Below are positions 11,026 to 12,462 of a DNA stretch of 32,000 nucleotides, one piece after another. The translations under genes were made by a program, and so were the position numbers. The stretch's first letter is position 1; each line of letters begins with the position of its first letter. The stretch comes from Nitrososphaerota archaeon (GTDB lineage: Archaea > Thermoproteota > Nitrososphaeria > Nitrososphaerales > UBA57), in NCBI GenBank assembly GCA_002713205.1, contig PAVW01000017.1:22581-54580 (forward strand), given 5' to 3'. The notes under the pieces were generated by a model. The model had not been told where the DNA came from. It saw nothing but the letters and a program-made list of their open reading frames with translations, and ran no database searches.

Positions 11026-12462
11026 ATGAGTACTAGACAAGAATTTTGGGATAATGTTTCCAAGTATAGAGAAATGGGTATGGATCCGTTGCGTTGGGTA
11101 GCAGGTTGTGCTGTTAAGGTAGATCTTAATTCAGTTGTTTATCCTACTCTTCATAATATAAAACCAAGTCTAAAACAAATGGGAATTTCTTTAGGCGCAA
11201 GAGTAGATGCTGATATATTTCCCCTCGTTGGAGATGGACCTATAATTAATCGAAGAATTTATGATCCATTTTCTACTAGTATTGATACTGAGGATTTAAA
11301 AAAAATTAATCCTAAACGTGCAATTTCACTTCTCCAGGTCTTTCAAAAAAACGCTGAAAAACAAGAAAAATTTGAAGCGTTGTTGATCAGTCTTTATACA
11401 TCTATATCAAAATCAAATGTTCATTTTTCTGTTGGAAAAGGGCATTCTATAATAACACCAGACAAAGAGGCCGAATTTGCACTTTTTGATTTTATTTCTT
11501 ATGAAGAAGGTCAAACAGACGGTTATTGTTTATCAAATAATGATACTATTCAAATTATTGATCCTACTGCAGATCCTTCATCTGAACAACAAACTAATGT
11601 AGCAGTATCGAATTCTCTCAATGATTTAATAACATTGGGTTGTTTTGAAGAATTGAAAGTTTTACCAGTTGTAGATGCACCAAACCAAGAAATTGAAACA
11701 CAAATTCTAAAAAATATGACAAGTTTTGCAACTAAATATAATATTGAATTAATTCCCGCAGAATCTCCTAAACGTAGTAAATTACTAATTGGCGCTACAT
11801 TATTTGGTTCATTACAAAAAGAACCTCCGACTAAGTTAGATTTGTTGGATTCTGATATGAAAATTCTCGTTACGCGACCATTTGGTGATCTAGCTCCTAT
11901 TAACGTATTCTTATCATGTGTAGCGGATGACACTTTTCTTAAAGACCTTGAAGCTACTGGATATGGTCTTAAAGATGTTCAGAAGGCTAAAGATTCAGTT
12001 ATTAAAACTATGAGTGAACCTAATCTCAAAGTCGCAAAAATTATTAATAAATACCTCCCTGATTTTGGAAGTGACTTTAATGTTCAAGAACATATTCTAG
12101 CAACTGGAGACCTTTCAGGTCCTGGTATAATGATCTTCAAGGAACATGCAGATAATGCAAATGTGGATATATCTCTTGATAATTTACCTTTGCAATATCC
12201 AGAATTTGTCAAATACGCTACCGAAAATTTCTTAATGGATAATGCAACTGCTGGGACTAATGGAGCTGTTGCTATAATTGCTAGTTCTAATATTATTGGA
12301 AATATTAAGACTGATTTAGCTAAAGAAGGATATGATCCTCGACTTGTAGGTACTATACTTGGCAAAGGTACTGGCAATGTTCGTGTTGGAAAGAATGTTA
12401 AAGATATGATTGCATCGCAAGCTTTATTGGATGATTTGGATATAACCGGGAATGAAAATTGA
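11026..12462 (+). CDS. SelD-like (selenophosphate synthetase-related) PurM/AIR-synthase-superfamily ATP-utilising enzyme, divergent and extended
   Basis: Alignments to E. coli SelD:
- N-terminal VAGC28AVK31VDLNSVVYPTLH aligns to GAGC17GCK20ISPKVLETILH.
- TNVAVSNSLNDLITLG aligns to IAATNAISDIFAMGG.
- ILVTRPFG aligns to LFLTKPLG.
- ATGDLSGPGIMIFKEHA aligns to MTDVTGFGLLGHLSEM.

It is 478 aa versus about 350 for SelD, with extra sequence between the N-terminal loop and the core. Confidence 0.7.
   Translation: MSTRQEFWDNVSKYREMGMDPLRWVAGCAVKVDLNSVVYPTLHNIKPSLKQMGISLGARVDADIFPLVGDGPIINRRIYDPFSTSIDTEDLKKINPKRAISLLQVFQKNAEKQEKFEALLISLYTSISKSNVHFSVGKGHSIITPDKEAEFALFDFISYEEGQTDGYCLSNNDTIQIIDPTADPSSEQQTNVAVSNSLNDLITLGCFEELKVLPVVDAPNQEIETQILKNMTSFATKYNIELIPAESPKRSKLLIGATLFGSLQKEPPTKLDLLDSDMKILVTRPFGDLAPINVFLSCVADDTFLKDLEATGYGLKDVQKAKDSVIKTMSEPNLKVAKIINKYLPDFGSDFNVQEHILATGDLSGPGIMIFKEHADNANVDISLDNLPLQYPEFVKYATENFLMDNATAGTNGAVAIIASSNIIGNIKTDLAKEGYDPRLVGTILGKGTGNVRVGKNVKDMIASQALLDDLDITGNEN

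What the first reader, a model, noticed from the sequence alone, without database searches (positions are those of the whole stretch)
11026..12462. Divergent, extended SelD-like enzyme that keeps the catalytic Cys/Lys N-terminal loop
**Similarity to SelD.** The N-terminus VAG-C28-A-V-K31-VDL (Cys codon 11107-11109, Lys codon 11116-11118) lines up with the E. coli SelD loop GAG-C17-G-C-K20-I, where Cys17 and Lys20 are the essential residues. Core PurM-fold blocks are also recognisable (TNVAVSNSLNDL, ILVTRPFG, ATGDLSGPG, NGAVAIIA).

**Differences.** The protein is 478 aa versus roughly 350 for SelD, with about 100 extra residues between the loop and the core. It has Cys rather than Sec, and the second Cys of the E. 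coli loop is absent.

**Context.** It is translationally coupled to a TusA-like carrier by an 11-nt overlap. That suggests the substrate arrives as a protein-bound persulfide or perselenide rather than as a free anion. The lineage is not known for selenoproteins, so a sulfur-specific activity such as thiophosphate formation, or a non-Sec use of selenium, is conceivable.
Basis: partly seen in the sequence, partly recalled or inferred. Interest (0 to 1): 0.8.

Follow-up and report, generated by a model that had tools for sequence, protein, structure and literature searches.

The report
Known archaeal SelD-like sulfur enzyme
This gene encodes a member of an already described but never tested archaeal family related to selenophosphate synthetase; here it sits in a cold-ocean archaeon beside sulfur-carrier genes and most likely uses ATP to activate carrier-bound sulfur.

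Summary
ORF 11026-12462 encodes a 478-aa PurM-superfamily protein with an invariant G-C28-x-x-K31 loop, and it overlaps a TusA gene by 11 nt.

It is not new. It scores 552 bits (cutoff 250) on NCBIfam NF038049, "SelD-related putative sulfur metabolism protein". Li et al. 2014 (BMC Genomics 15:908) published this family with the same Cys/Lys, SirA/TusA and thiophosphate arguments. A May 2026 review still calls the function speculative.

What this work adds:
1. The window comes from heterotrophic marine Thaumarchaeota, not hyperthermophiles.
2. Modelled alone, residues 1-162, which include the extra ~90 residues, match only PurM-superfamily enzymes in the top 23 fold-search hits. They carry an invariant K138-x-H140 motif.
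3. C28, K31, D61, D173, D200 and D362 map onto SelD C17, K20, D51, D68, D91 and D227. They persist across 67 divergent cluster representatives.
4. The family is rare: 184 representatives among 1.84 billion.
5. A same-strand TusA gene lies within 60 nt in 45 of 76 loci. An acylphosphatase is adjacent or fused in about half of the loci, but not in this lineage.

Most likely it is an ATP-dependent activator of TusA-delivered sulfane sulfur, possibly forming thiophosphate. This is untested.

The parts
11026..12462 (+). SelD-like gene (478 aa), a member of NCBIfam NF038049 'SelD-related putative sulfur metabolism protein'
   Evidence: ORF confirmed. NF038049 match: E = 8.5e-166, 552 bits against a cutoff of 250, full length. 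AlphaFold2 model: pLDDT 92.4, pTM 0.91. SelD structures are the top fold matches.
11026..11241 (+). N-terminal segment (residues 1-72). It holds helix 3-16, the flexible loop with G27-C28-A-V-K31-V-D-L, helix 34-51, and the R59-x-D61-A-D strand.
   Evidence: C28, K31, R59 and D61 are invariant. hhalign maps them to E. coli SelD C17, K20 and D51. The lowest pLDDT block (66) covers residues 21-30, as expected for a mobile loop. In SelD the Cys, the Lys and the first Asp likewise lie in the flexible N-terminal segment (PMC7595633).
11242..11505 (+). Extra region absent from SelD (residues ~73-160, order beta-alpha-beta-alpha-beta-beta). It carries invariant R76, Q104, Q107 and G137-K138-G139-H140-S141-I142.
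   Evidence: Residues 1-162 modelled alone give pLDDT 87.2. The top 23 Foldseek PDB hits for that model are all PurM-superfamily enzymes (HypE, PurM, ThiL, SelD), E = 3.7e-5 to 1.4e-3. hhalign against the SelD N-domain scores 23.0, against 13.2 +/- 2.7 for column shuffles (1 of 150 reach it) and 14.6 for the SelD C-domain. K138 and H140 are each kept in 62 of 67 divergent representatives.
11506..11820 (+). Canonical AIRS-type N-domain (residues ~161-265) with N171-N-D173-T, N196 and D200
   Evidence: hhalign maps N196 to SelD N87 and D200 to D91. N171-x-D173 matches the SelD T-x-D68 motif. D173 is kept in 60 of 67 representatives, whereas D179 is missing in 24.
11821..12459 (+). AIRS_C-type C-domain (residues ~266-478) with D362 (T-G-D-L-S-G-P-G) and T408-x-G-T-N-G
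   Evidence: hhalign aligns residues 182-454 with E. coli SelD 75-344 at 98% probability, mapping D362 to D227. D362 is kept in 63 of 67 representatives.
12452..12709 (+). TusA-family sulfur carrier 1 (85 aa, Cys21 in I-C-P-W-P). It overlaps the SelD-like gene by 11 nt.
   Evidence: Pfam TusA E = 5.8e-19. Junction sequence read. A same-strand TusA gene lies within 60 nt of the SelD-like gene in 45 of 76 loci.
12736..12963 (+). TusA-family sulfur carrier 2 (75 aa, Cys14 in V-C-P-V-P)
   Evidence: Pfam TusA E = 7.2e-25. It is conserved in the same position in marine loci L001-L007.
12966..13769 (+). Tandem-rhodanese sulfurtransferase (267 aa), starting 2 nt after TusA2
   Evidence: Pfam Rhodanese E = 3.7e-35 with two stretches. 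The best NCBIfam similarity is to 3-mercaptopyruvate sulfurtransferase, below its cutoff. A rhodanese lies within 4 kb in 22 of 76 loci.
7505..8602 (-). YeeE/YedE-family membrane transporter (365 aa)
   Evidence: Pfam Sulf_transp E = 6.2e-53. It scores below the cutoffs of both the YedE/FdhT model (158.9 bits) and the TsuA models (131 and 114 bits). A YeeE homologue lies within 4 kb in 23 of 76 loci, often in the order YeeE-TusA-SelD-like.
7223..7498 (-). Third TusA-like ORF (91 aa, V-C-P-Y-P), 6 nt downstream of YeeE in a YeeE-YeeD-type pairing
   Evidence: ORF found. Pfam TusA E = 2e-6, 28.0 bits against a cutoff of 28.6, covering the full domain. The same arrangement occurs in L001 and L004-L006.
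8608..10958 (-). Two beta-propeller proteins (380 aa with an N-terminal membrane helix; 394 aa with a twin-arginine signal) lying between YeeE and the divergent promoter region
   Evidence: Propeller families and the TAT signal were found. They accompany the cluster only in the marine thaumarchaeal loci (clusters c8 and c12, 6-7 loci). Whether they belong to the system is uncertain.
10959..11025 (.). 67-bp AT-rich divergent intergenic region between the propeller/YeeE/TusA3 genes and the SelD-like/TusA/TusA/rhodanese genes
   Evidence: Sequence read. That it acts as a divergent promoter is inferred only.

Best explanation
The gene encodes a member of the archaeal SelD-like family (NCBIfam NF038049; Li et al. 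2014). This is a PurM-superfamily ATP-utilising enzyme that shares the catalytic apparatus of selenophosphate synthetase.

**Proposed working**
1. Inferred from bacterial homologues: the YeeE-family permease and its adjacent YeeD-like TusA3 bring in thiosulfate or a related sulfur compound. They convert it to protein-bound sulfane sulfur.
2. Inferred: the tandem rhodanese and TusA1/TusA2 pass this sulfur on as cysteine persulfides.
3. Inferred from conserved residues: the SelD-like enzyme binds Mg-ATP through D61, D173, D200 and D362, with N196. Its mobile N-terminal loop closes over the gamma-phosphate, with K31 contacting the phosphate. C28 accepts the sulfur from the translationally coupled TusA1.
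4. Hypothesis: the sulfur attacks the gamma-phosphate to give thiophosphate or an enzyme-bound equivalent. ADP is hydrolysed to AMP and phosphate, as in SelD.

The extra PurM-like region carrying K138-x-H140 is a family-specific addition. Its role, for example carrier docking or a second ligand site, is unknown.

**Shown:** family membership, the fold, residue conservation and gene linkage. **Not shown:** the substrate, the product, and which chalcogen is used.
For: **Membership**
- NF038049 at 552 bits against a cutoff of 250, full length.
- NCBI already names thaumarchaeal homologues this way.

**Relation to SelD**
- Only SelD models appear among the secondary NCBIfam hits.
- Foldseek ranks SelD at 1.1e-14, ahead of HypE at 2.5e-12, ThiL at 1.3e-11 and PurM at 1.6e-9.
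- hhalign against a 13-sequence SelD profile gives 98% probability and E = 1.2e-13, mapping N196=N87, D200=D91 and D362=D227.
- The N-terminal alignment maps C28=C17, K31=K20 and D61=D51, with a shuffle control.

**Conservation**
- All these residues are invariant in 31 homologues.
- They are retained in about 90% of 67 divergent representatives.

**Carrier delivery**
- A same-strand TusA lies within 60 nt in 45 of 76 loci, and within 4 kb in 59.
- The SelD-like/TusA junction stays tight in orthologues.
- In true SelD, the N-terminal segment is needed to dock the selenium-donor protein (PMC7595633).

**Sulfur context**
- Neighbours include YeeE, rhodanese, DsrE, SQR/FCSD-like and ThiF genes.
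- An sHdr-like cluster and a type III SQR homologue flank the gene in L012.
- YeeE-YeeD is an experimentally shown thiosulfate uptake pair, and the YeeD cysteine becomes modified (PMC11073785).
Against: - No member of the family has been assayed. A May 2026 review still calls the role speculative.
- Thiophosphate is not an established natural metabolite (my own knowledge).
- The N-terminal alignment is statistically weak (hhalign P about 0.002-0.007; empirical about 1 in 150).
- The window's YeeE and TusA1 score slightly better on selenium-associated models (YedE/FdhT, YedF) than on thiosulfate models, all below cutoff.
- Two divergent subgroups keep the Cys/Lys loop but have no TusA neighbour.
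- An acylphosphatase accompanies or is fused to the enzyme in about half of the loci. The thiophosphate model does not explain this.
Confidence: 0.5

Rival explanations
1. It is a genuine selenium enzyme. It makes selenophosphate from carrier-delivered selenium for a selenium use that has not been recognised in these archaea.
For: - The full SelD catalytic set is retained.
- The window's YeeE scores highest on the YedE/FdhT selenium model (158.9 bits). TusA1 scores highest on the YedF model. Both are below cutoff.
- Bacterial selenium modules pair YedE and a SirA/TusA-like protein with SelD (PMC5322559).
- The true selD of Haloarcula is directly preceded by a tusA gene.
Against: - The protein scores far below the SelD cutoffs: 38.9 against 291, and 15.5 against 125.
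- It forms a branch separate from SelD, in hosts that lack every known selenium trait (Li et al. 2014).
- Its neighbours in other lineages are dissimilatory sulfur genes: sHdr-like, SQR, DsrE.
- No SECIS or selenium-related RNA family reached threshold in the window.
Confidence: 0.12
2. It performs HypE/PurM-type chemistry: ATP-dependent phosphorylation of a carbonyl or thiocarboxylate oxygen on a protein- or carrier-bound group. This would form an acyl-phosphate-like intermediate rather than phosphorylating sulfur directly.
For: - HypE is nearly as good a fold match as SelD for the whole protein. It is the best match for residues 1-162.
- An acylphosphatase domain is adjacent downstream in 28 loci and fused in 10. 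From my own knowledge, HypF, the partner of HypE, carries an acylphosphatase-like domain.
- Li et al. proposed an acyl-(thio)phosphate variant as their Model 1.
Against: - No HypE, PurM or ThiL model appears at E <= 1 in NCBIfam.
- The C-terminus (…DDLDITGNEN) has no cysteine, whereas HypE acts on its own C-terminal Cys (my own knowledge).
- The reactive Cys/Lys loop is of SelD type.
- The marine lineage has no acylphosphatase nearby.
Confidence: 0.2
3. It is a non-catalytic relic or regulator that only binds nucleotide or the TusA carrier.
For: - A small subgroup of relatives has lost the catalytic residues, for example K31 to E and D362 to P. The scaffold can therefore persist without chemistry.
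Against: - The window protein and its whole clade keep every catalytic residue invariant.
- The gene is retained in genomes of only about 1 Mb (PMC7300363).
Confidence: 0.04

Closest known systems
SelD-like family of Crenarchaeota (Li et al. 2014, BMC Genomics 15:908; NCBIfam NF038049 SelD_rel_HyperS)
   Same: - Full-length HMM match well above the cutoff.
- About 465-480 aa long.
- Conserved Cys-x-x-Lys, four Asp and one Asn.
- A SirA/TusA gene next door, with rhodanese nearby.
- The same thiophosphate hypothesis.
   Different: - The host is a low-GC (30%), small-genome, deep-ocean heterotrophic thaumarchaeon. The family was described in hyperthermophilic sulfur reducers.
- No acylphosphatase partner or fusion.
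- No DsrE-type ('Prx-like') neighbour.
- The cluster additionally contains YeeE, a YeeD-like TusA and two beta-propeller proteins.
Selenophosphate synthetase SelD/SEPHS (TIGR00476, PRK14105; PDB 3U0O, 2YYE, 3FD5)
   Same: - AIRS and AIRS_C fold.
- Mobile N-terminal loop with G-C-x-x-K.
- Equivalents of D51, D68, N87, D91 and D227.
- A TusA-like gene adjacent in some true SelD loci.
- Chalcogen probably delivered by a protein.
   Different: - Only 12-17% identity over the structural alignments, and far below the family cutoffs.
- About 90 extra residues, within an N-terminal region that matches PurM-type folds, carrying a K-x-H motif.
- Cys only, never Sec, in the sequences seen.
- Sulfur rather than selenium gene context.
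- Activity unknown.
HypE (with HypF) of [NiFe]-hydrogenase maturation
   Same: - PurM-superfamily fold with nearly equal structural similarity.
- Acts on a cysteine-bound group with ATP.
- The family has a recurrent link to an acylphosphatase-type domain, as HypF has.
   Different: - No C-terminal reactive Cys.
- No HypE HMM match.
- No hydrogenase maturation genes nearby.
YeeE-YeeD (TsuA-TsuB) thiosulfate uptake and YedE-YedF-SelD selenium modules
   Same: A transporter of the same family, followed directly by a TusA-like protein and linked to a SelD-type enzyme.
   Different: - The window's transporter and carriers fall below the cutoffs of both the sulfur and the selenium subfamily models, so their specificity is unresolved.
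- Three separate single-domain TusA proteins are present, instead of a YedF TusA-DsrE fusion.

Membership tests
SelD-like / NF038049 SelD_rel_HyperS | Full-length match to the curated HMM above its cutoff | tested here: met
   552 bits against a cutoff of 250. Residues 6-472 match profile positions 2-464 of 465.
SelD-like / NF038049 SelD_rel_HyperS | Conserved Cys-x-x-Lys, plus metal-binding Asp and Asn residues corresponding to those of SelD (Li et al. 2014) | tested here: met
   C28, K31, D61, D173, N196, D200 and D362 are invariant in 31 homologues. They align to the SelD residues.
SelD-like / NF038049 SelD_rel_HyperS | Neighbouring SirA/TusA-type sulfur carrier | tested here: met
   TusA1 overlaps the gene by 11 nt. 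The same linkage is seen in 45 of 76 loci.
SelD-like / NF038049 SelD_rel_HyperS | Acylphosphatase fusion or neighbour (reported for Thermoproteales) | tested here: not met
   None was found in the window (tblastn best E = 0.15) or in the marine loci. It is present in only about half of the family, so it is not universal.
SelD-like / NF038049 SelD_rel_HyperS | Host is a hyperthermophilic sulfur-metabolising archaeon (as the family was named) | tested here: not met
   The nearest genomes are heterotrophic marine Thaumarchaeota MAGs (ASW8, ATL, ALOHA). This is a descriptive feature of the family, not a molecular one.
Selenophosphate synthetase SelD | Match to the SelD equivalog HMMs above cutoff | tested here: not met
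   PRK14105 scores 38.9 bits against 291. TIGR00476 scores 15.5 against 125. Pfam AIRS and AIRS_C give no hit.
Selenophosphate synthetase SelD | N-terminal Sec/Cys-x-x-Lys loop and ATP-binding Asp residues | tested here: met
Selenophosphate synthetase SelD | Co-occurrence with a selenium-utilisation trait (SelA/SelB, PSTK/SepSecS, MnmH, YqeB/YqeC, tRNA-Sec) | not testable with these tools
   Only 32 kb of the genome is available. No such gene or RNA family was seen in the window. Li et al. report that hosts of the family lack these traits.
Selenophosphate synthetase SelD | Selenide-dependent conversion of ATP to selenophosphate, AMP and phosphate | not testable with these tools
   A biochemical assay is required.
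HypE | Reactive C-terminal cysteine and a HypE HMM match | tested here: not met
   The C-terminus …DDLDITGNEN has no Cys. No HypE model appears at E <= 1.
PurM (AIRS) superfamily | Two-domain AIRS/AIRS_C fold | tested here: met
   The top 50 Foldseek hits are SelD, HypE, ThiL and PurM structures, or entries containing them, at probability 1.00.

The most novel reading that the evidence does not exclude
The enzyme is a thiophosphate synthetase: carrier-persulfide or sulfide plus ATP gives thiophosphate, AMP and phosphate.

That would make thiophosphate a natural activated-sulfur metabolite. It would also define a new ATP-driven sulfur assimilation route, YeeE to TusA/rhodanese to SelD-like. This route is kept even in roughly 1-Mb genomes of oxic deep-ocean archaea. 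The family-specific PurM-like extra region would serve as the docking or second-ligand module.
Probability: 0.3. Interest if true: 0.8.

Novelty: new member of a known kind. Interest (0 to 1): 0.4.

Why it matters
The family is rare, with 184 cluster representatives among 1.84 billion. It is strictly conserved at its catalytic residues and is still without an assigned reaction twelve years after its description.

Finding it in streamlined, cold-water heterotrophic Thaumarchaeota shows that it is not a hyperthermophile speciality. It also offers a compact gene set for reconstitution: YeeE, three TusA proteins, a rhodanese and the SelD-like enzyme.

If the product is thiophosphate, that would be new sulfur biochemistry and a sulfur counterpart of selenophosphate. 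If the enzyme uses selenium, it would reveal an unrecognised selenium trait in archaea.

As a genome-scan finding, however, it rediscovers a published and curated family.

Tried and rejected
- **PDB and Pfam by sequence:** single-sequence phmmer against PDB found nothing. Pfam found no AIRS domains. A profile search against PDB gave only marginal HypE and SelD hits.
- **SelD profile:** my first attempt returned only enterobacterial SelDs at 77-94% identity. I replaced them with plasmid-borne SelDs from Proteobacteria, Firmicutes, Actinobacteria and Haloarchaea.
- **Asp mapping:** I first mapped D173 to D51 and D179 to D68. I rejected this because D61 aligns with D51 at SelD-like spacing and D179 is absent in 24 of 67 divergent members.
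- **Internal duplication:** a direct comparison of residues 1-162 with 145-270 was not significant (E = 0.18). The case for a PurM-like extra domain therefore rests on the fold search and on the alignment to SelD, not on self-similarity.
- **Literature:** searches for 'SelD-like' with TusA and for the NCBIfam name found nothing. The two papers on the marine lineage do not mention the cluster.
- **Taxonomy of divergent subgroups:** the cluster-member look-up gave almost nothing.
- **L012:** whether this contig, labelled Acidobacteriota, is truly bacterial stayed unresolved.
- **Odd tRNA:** the tRNA at 7131-7221 could not be assigned an anticodon.
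Full report
**Observation.** ORF 11026-12462 (+) is intact and encodes 478 aa. Codon 28 is TGT at 11107-11109 and codon 31 is AAG at 11116-11118. 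The next ORF (12452-12709) is a TusA-family protein (Pfam E = 5.8e-19). Its ATG lies 11 nt inside the SelD-like gene. Further downstream are a second TusA (12736-12963) and a tandem rhodanese (12966-13769). On the opposite strand lie two beta-propeller proteins, one with a twin-arginine signal, and a YeeE/YedE-family transporter. A third TusA-like ORF (7223-7498) lies 6 nt beyond YeeE.

**Identity.** The protein matches NCBIfam NF038049, [quoted passage not shown]. The match has E = 8.5e-166 and 552 bits against a cutoff of 250, and it runs end to end. The only other NCBIfam hits are SelD models, far below their cutoffs (38.9 against 291; 15.5 against 125). These cover residues 174-459 only.

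The family was described by Li et al. 2014 (PMC4210487). They reported:
- a distant SelD homologue in Sulfolobales and Thermoproteales;
- a conserved Cys-x-x-Lys, four Asp and one Asn;
- SirA (TusA)-like and COG2210 neighbours;
- acylphosphatase fusions in Thermoproteales;
- the hypothesis that the enzyme makes a thiophosphate compound.

Reviews from 2022 and May 2026 still describe the role as speculative.

**Lineage.**
- The closest proteins (92-95% identical) are unnamed metagenomic sequences. The nearest named ones are from Thaumarchaeota/Nitrososphaerales MAGs.
- The nearest reference genomes (79-83%) are ASW2_bin45, ASW8_bin1, ATL, UBA223 and ALOHA MAGs.
- ASW8 and HMT_ATL belong to the heterotrophic marine Thaumarchaeota. 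These are mesopelagic, lack ammonia oxidation, and have genomes of about 0.8-1 Mb (PMC7300363).
- The window has 30.4% GC.
- The whole arrangement, YeeE and two propellers facing SelD-like, two TusA genes and a rhodanese, is syntenic in these MAGs.
- The two papers on this lineage do not mention the cluster.
- Other hits come from groundwater Thaumarchaeota, Halobacteria, Hydrothermarchaeales, Desulfurococcales, Pyrodictiaceae, Thermofilaceae, Acidilobales and one contig labelled Acidobacteriota.

The family is therefore broader than the 2014 description, which reported it absent from Desulfurococcales.

**Relation to SelD.**
- An AlphaFold2 model built on 31 homologues is confident (pLDDT 92.4, pTM 0.91). 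Its least confident block (66) covers residues 21-30, the loop carrying C28.
- Foldseek against the PDB ranks SelD structures first (3FD5_B at 1.1e-14, 3U0O_A at 1.8e-14). HypE follows at 2.5e-12, ThiL at 1.3e-11 and PurM at 1.6e-9. The alignments span about 305-335 columns, which is the core only.
- I built a SelD profile from authentic E. coli SelD and ten divergent SelDs taken from plasmid records.
- hhalign aligns residues 182-454 with E. coli SelD 75-344 at 98% probability and E = 1.2e-13. This maps N196=N87, D200=D91 and D362=D227.

**The N-terminal loop.**
- Residues 1-60 against SelD 1-45 align L22-V32 with Y11-I21. This places C28 on C17 and K31 on K20 (P = 0.0017).
- Longer pieces give a colinear alignment of residues 15-160 with SelD 4-159. 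It also places R59-x-D61-A-D-I-F on R-D-D51-A-A-V-Y, and G-K-G-H-S-I (137-142) on G-G-H-S-I.
- On its own this is weak (P = 0.0065). In a control with 150 column-shuffled SelD profiles, the mean score was 13.2 +/- 2.7 against 23.0 observed, and one shuffle reached it. The SelD C-domain scored 14.6.
- Independent support comes from the trypanosomatid SEPHS2 paper. In SelD the catalytic Cys, the Lys and the first phosphate-binding Asp all lie in the flexible segment preceding the AIRS domain. The next motif is T-x-D (PMC7595633). Here N171-x-D173 occupies that place.
- D173 is kept in 60 of 67 divergent representatives, whereas D179 is missing in 24. I therefore assign D173, not D179, as the D68 equivalent.
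- Sec-containing SelDs read U-A-A-K, so the missing second Cys is unremarkable.

**The extra residues.**
- The C28-to-D61 spacing of 33 residues matches the 34 residues in SelD. The additional roughly 90 residues therefore lie after the D61 strand, at about 73-160, rather than directly after the loop.
- Modelled alone, residues 1-162 fold confidently (pLDDT 87.2). The top 23 PDB hits for that model are all PurM-superfamily enzymes: HypE at 3.7e-5, PurM at 7e-5, ThiL at 4e-4 and SelD at 9e-4.
- Their secondary-structure order (beta-beta-beta-alpha-beta-alpha-beta-beta) is what I would expect of an AIRS N-domain.
- Strand 63-68 forms only in the full-length model. This suggests that it packs on the canonical domains.
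- I read the architecture as a SelD-type N-terminal segment, then an extra degenerate PurM-like region, then AIRS and AIRS_C.
- This is inference.
- K138 and H140 are each kept in 62 of 67 divergent members, and R76 in 65 of 67. The region therefore carries function.

**Family size and conservation.**
- An exhaustive profile search of 1.84 billion cluster representatives found 184 with E <= 1e-3 and 93 with E <= 1e-30.
- Conservation among the 67 full-length representatives:

| Residue | Retained |
|---|---|
| C28 | 64 of 65 with a residue aligned |
| K31 | 59 of 65 with a residue aligned |
| D61 | 53 as D, 8 as E |
| D200 | 61 of 67 |
| D362 | 63 of 67 |
| N412 | 62 of 67 |
| G413 | 66 of 67 |

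- Six representatives form a degenerate subgroup that has lost most of these residues.

**Gene context across the family.** The survey covered 76 loci.
- A TusA gene lies within 4 kb in 59 loci. It is on the same strand within 60 nt in 45.
- An acylphosphatase gene lies directly downstream in 28 loci and is fused in 10, but in none of the marine loci.
- YeeE occurs in 23 loci and rhodanese in 22.
- DsrE, PLP-enzyme, SQR/FCSD-like, HIT and ThiF genes occur in a few loci each.
- In L012 an sHdr-like cluster and a type III SQR homologue flank the gene.
- Two divergent subgroups, one with haloarchaeal-type neighbours, keep the loop but lack a TusA neighbour.
- YeeE-YeeD is an experimentally established thiosulfate uptake pair, and the YeeD cysteine becomes modified (PMC11073785).
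- Bacterial selenium modules pair YedE and SirA/TusA-like proteins with SelD (PMC5322559).
- The true selD of Haloarcula is preceded by a tusA gene.
- The window's YeeE and TusA1 fall below the cutoffs of both the sulfur and the selenium subfamily models. Context alone therefore does not fix the chalcogen.

**Mechanism.** My best reading, at confidence about 0.5, is an ATP-dependent activator of carrier-bound sulfane sulfur. YeeE and TusA3 import thiosulfate and capture its sulfur. The rhodanese and TusA1/TusA2 relay it as persulfides. C28 on the mobile loop accepts the sulfur from the translationally coupled TusA1. The sulfur is then phosphorylated from ATP held by D61, D173, D200 and D362, with K31 at the gamma-phosphate. 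Thiophosphate is the published candidate product, and I give it about 0.3.

| Rival reading | Confidence |
|---|---|
| A true selenium enzyme | 0.12 |
| HypE-like acyl-phosphate chemistry, which would explain the acylphosphatase partner | 0.2 |
| A non-catalytic relic | 0.04 |

**Verdict.** This is a new member of a known, uncharacterised kind, from an unexpected lineage. The architectural reading of the extra region appears not to have been described in the papers I read. I score interest at 0.4.

Noticed in passing
window 7131-7221 (+): A 91-93 nt tRNA between an upstream gene and TusA3. Rfam tRNA scores 38 bits. ARAGORN reports 'tRNA-???' with a two-base anticodon '(aa)', even in intron mode. 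It is probably an archaeal tRNA with a non-canonical intron. I could not assign its identity or formally exclude tRNA-Sec.
   Followed up: partly
window 8608-9750 (-) and 9774-10958 (-): Two seven-bladed-type beta-propeller proteins with YncE, cytochrome-d1 and NosZ-like similarities. One has an N-terminal membrane helix and the other a twin-arginine signal. They are wedged between YeeE and the SelD-like operon and are conserved there only in the marine thaumarchaeal loci. They could handle an extracellular sulfur compound, but their function is unknown.
   Followed up: partly
L012 1-17407 (contig CBDCMH010000005.1, labelled 'Acidobacteriota bacterium'): A SelD-like gene (55% identical) followed by TusA and rhodanese lies next to an sHdr-like cluster (HdrA/B/C homologues) and a type III SQR homologue, on a 407-kb contig attributed to a bacterium. 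The 2014 paper reported the family absent from bacteria. I could not tell whether this is a real bacterial member, a gene transfer or a mislabelled bin.
   Followed up: partly
proteins P0251, P0259, P0263, P0266, P0268, P0270: This subgroup of full-length relatives keeps the 'DPLRW..(G/S)C' N-terminus but has lost K31 (to E), D61, K138, H140, D173, D200 and D362. It looks like a degenerate, probably non-catalytic paralogue. One cluster member is from a Thermoproteota MAG.
   Followed up: no
L090 1-1199 (Haloarcula marismortui pHMA411): The genuine selD is directly preceded by a tusA-family gene and followed by yqeB. TusA adjacency is therefore shared by true SelD and the SelD-like family, and does not by itself indicate sulfur rather than selenium.
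   Followed up: no
76 related loci (clusters c1 and fusions): An acylphosphatase (PF00708) is a separate gene immediately downstream of the SelD-like gene in 28 loci from several crenarchaeal lineages, and is fused in 10. The 2014 paper emphasised only the Thermoproteales fusion. The partner is absent from the marine thaumarchaeal loci.
   Followed up: partly
window 25170-26267 (+): This S-adenosylmethionine synthetase matches the three Pfam MetK domains (PF00438, PF02772, PF02773). To my knowledge these are the bacterial/eukaryotic type, which would be unexpected in an archaeal window.
   Followed up: no
window 17396-18280 (+): A PEP-mutase / isocitrate-lyase superfamily protein (PF13714, E = 1.5e-47). 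It could relate to phosphonate metabolism or be a methylisocitrate-lyase-type enzyme.
   Followed up: no
window 13771-14028 (-): A small 85-aa ORF with a lysine-rich tail and no Pfam match. It is conserved just downstream of the rhodanese in seven marine loci (cluster c9).
   Followed up: no
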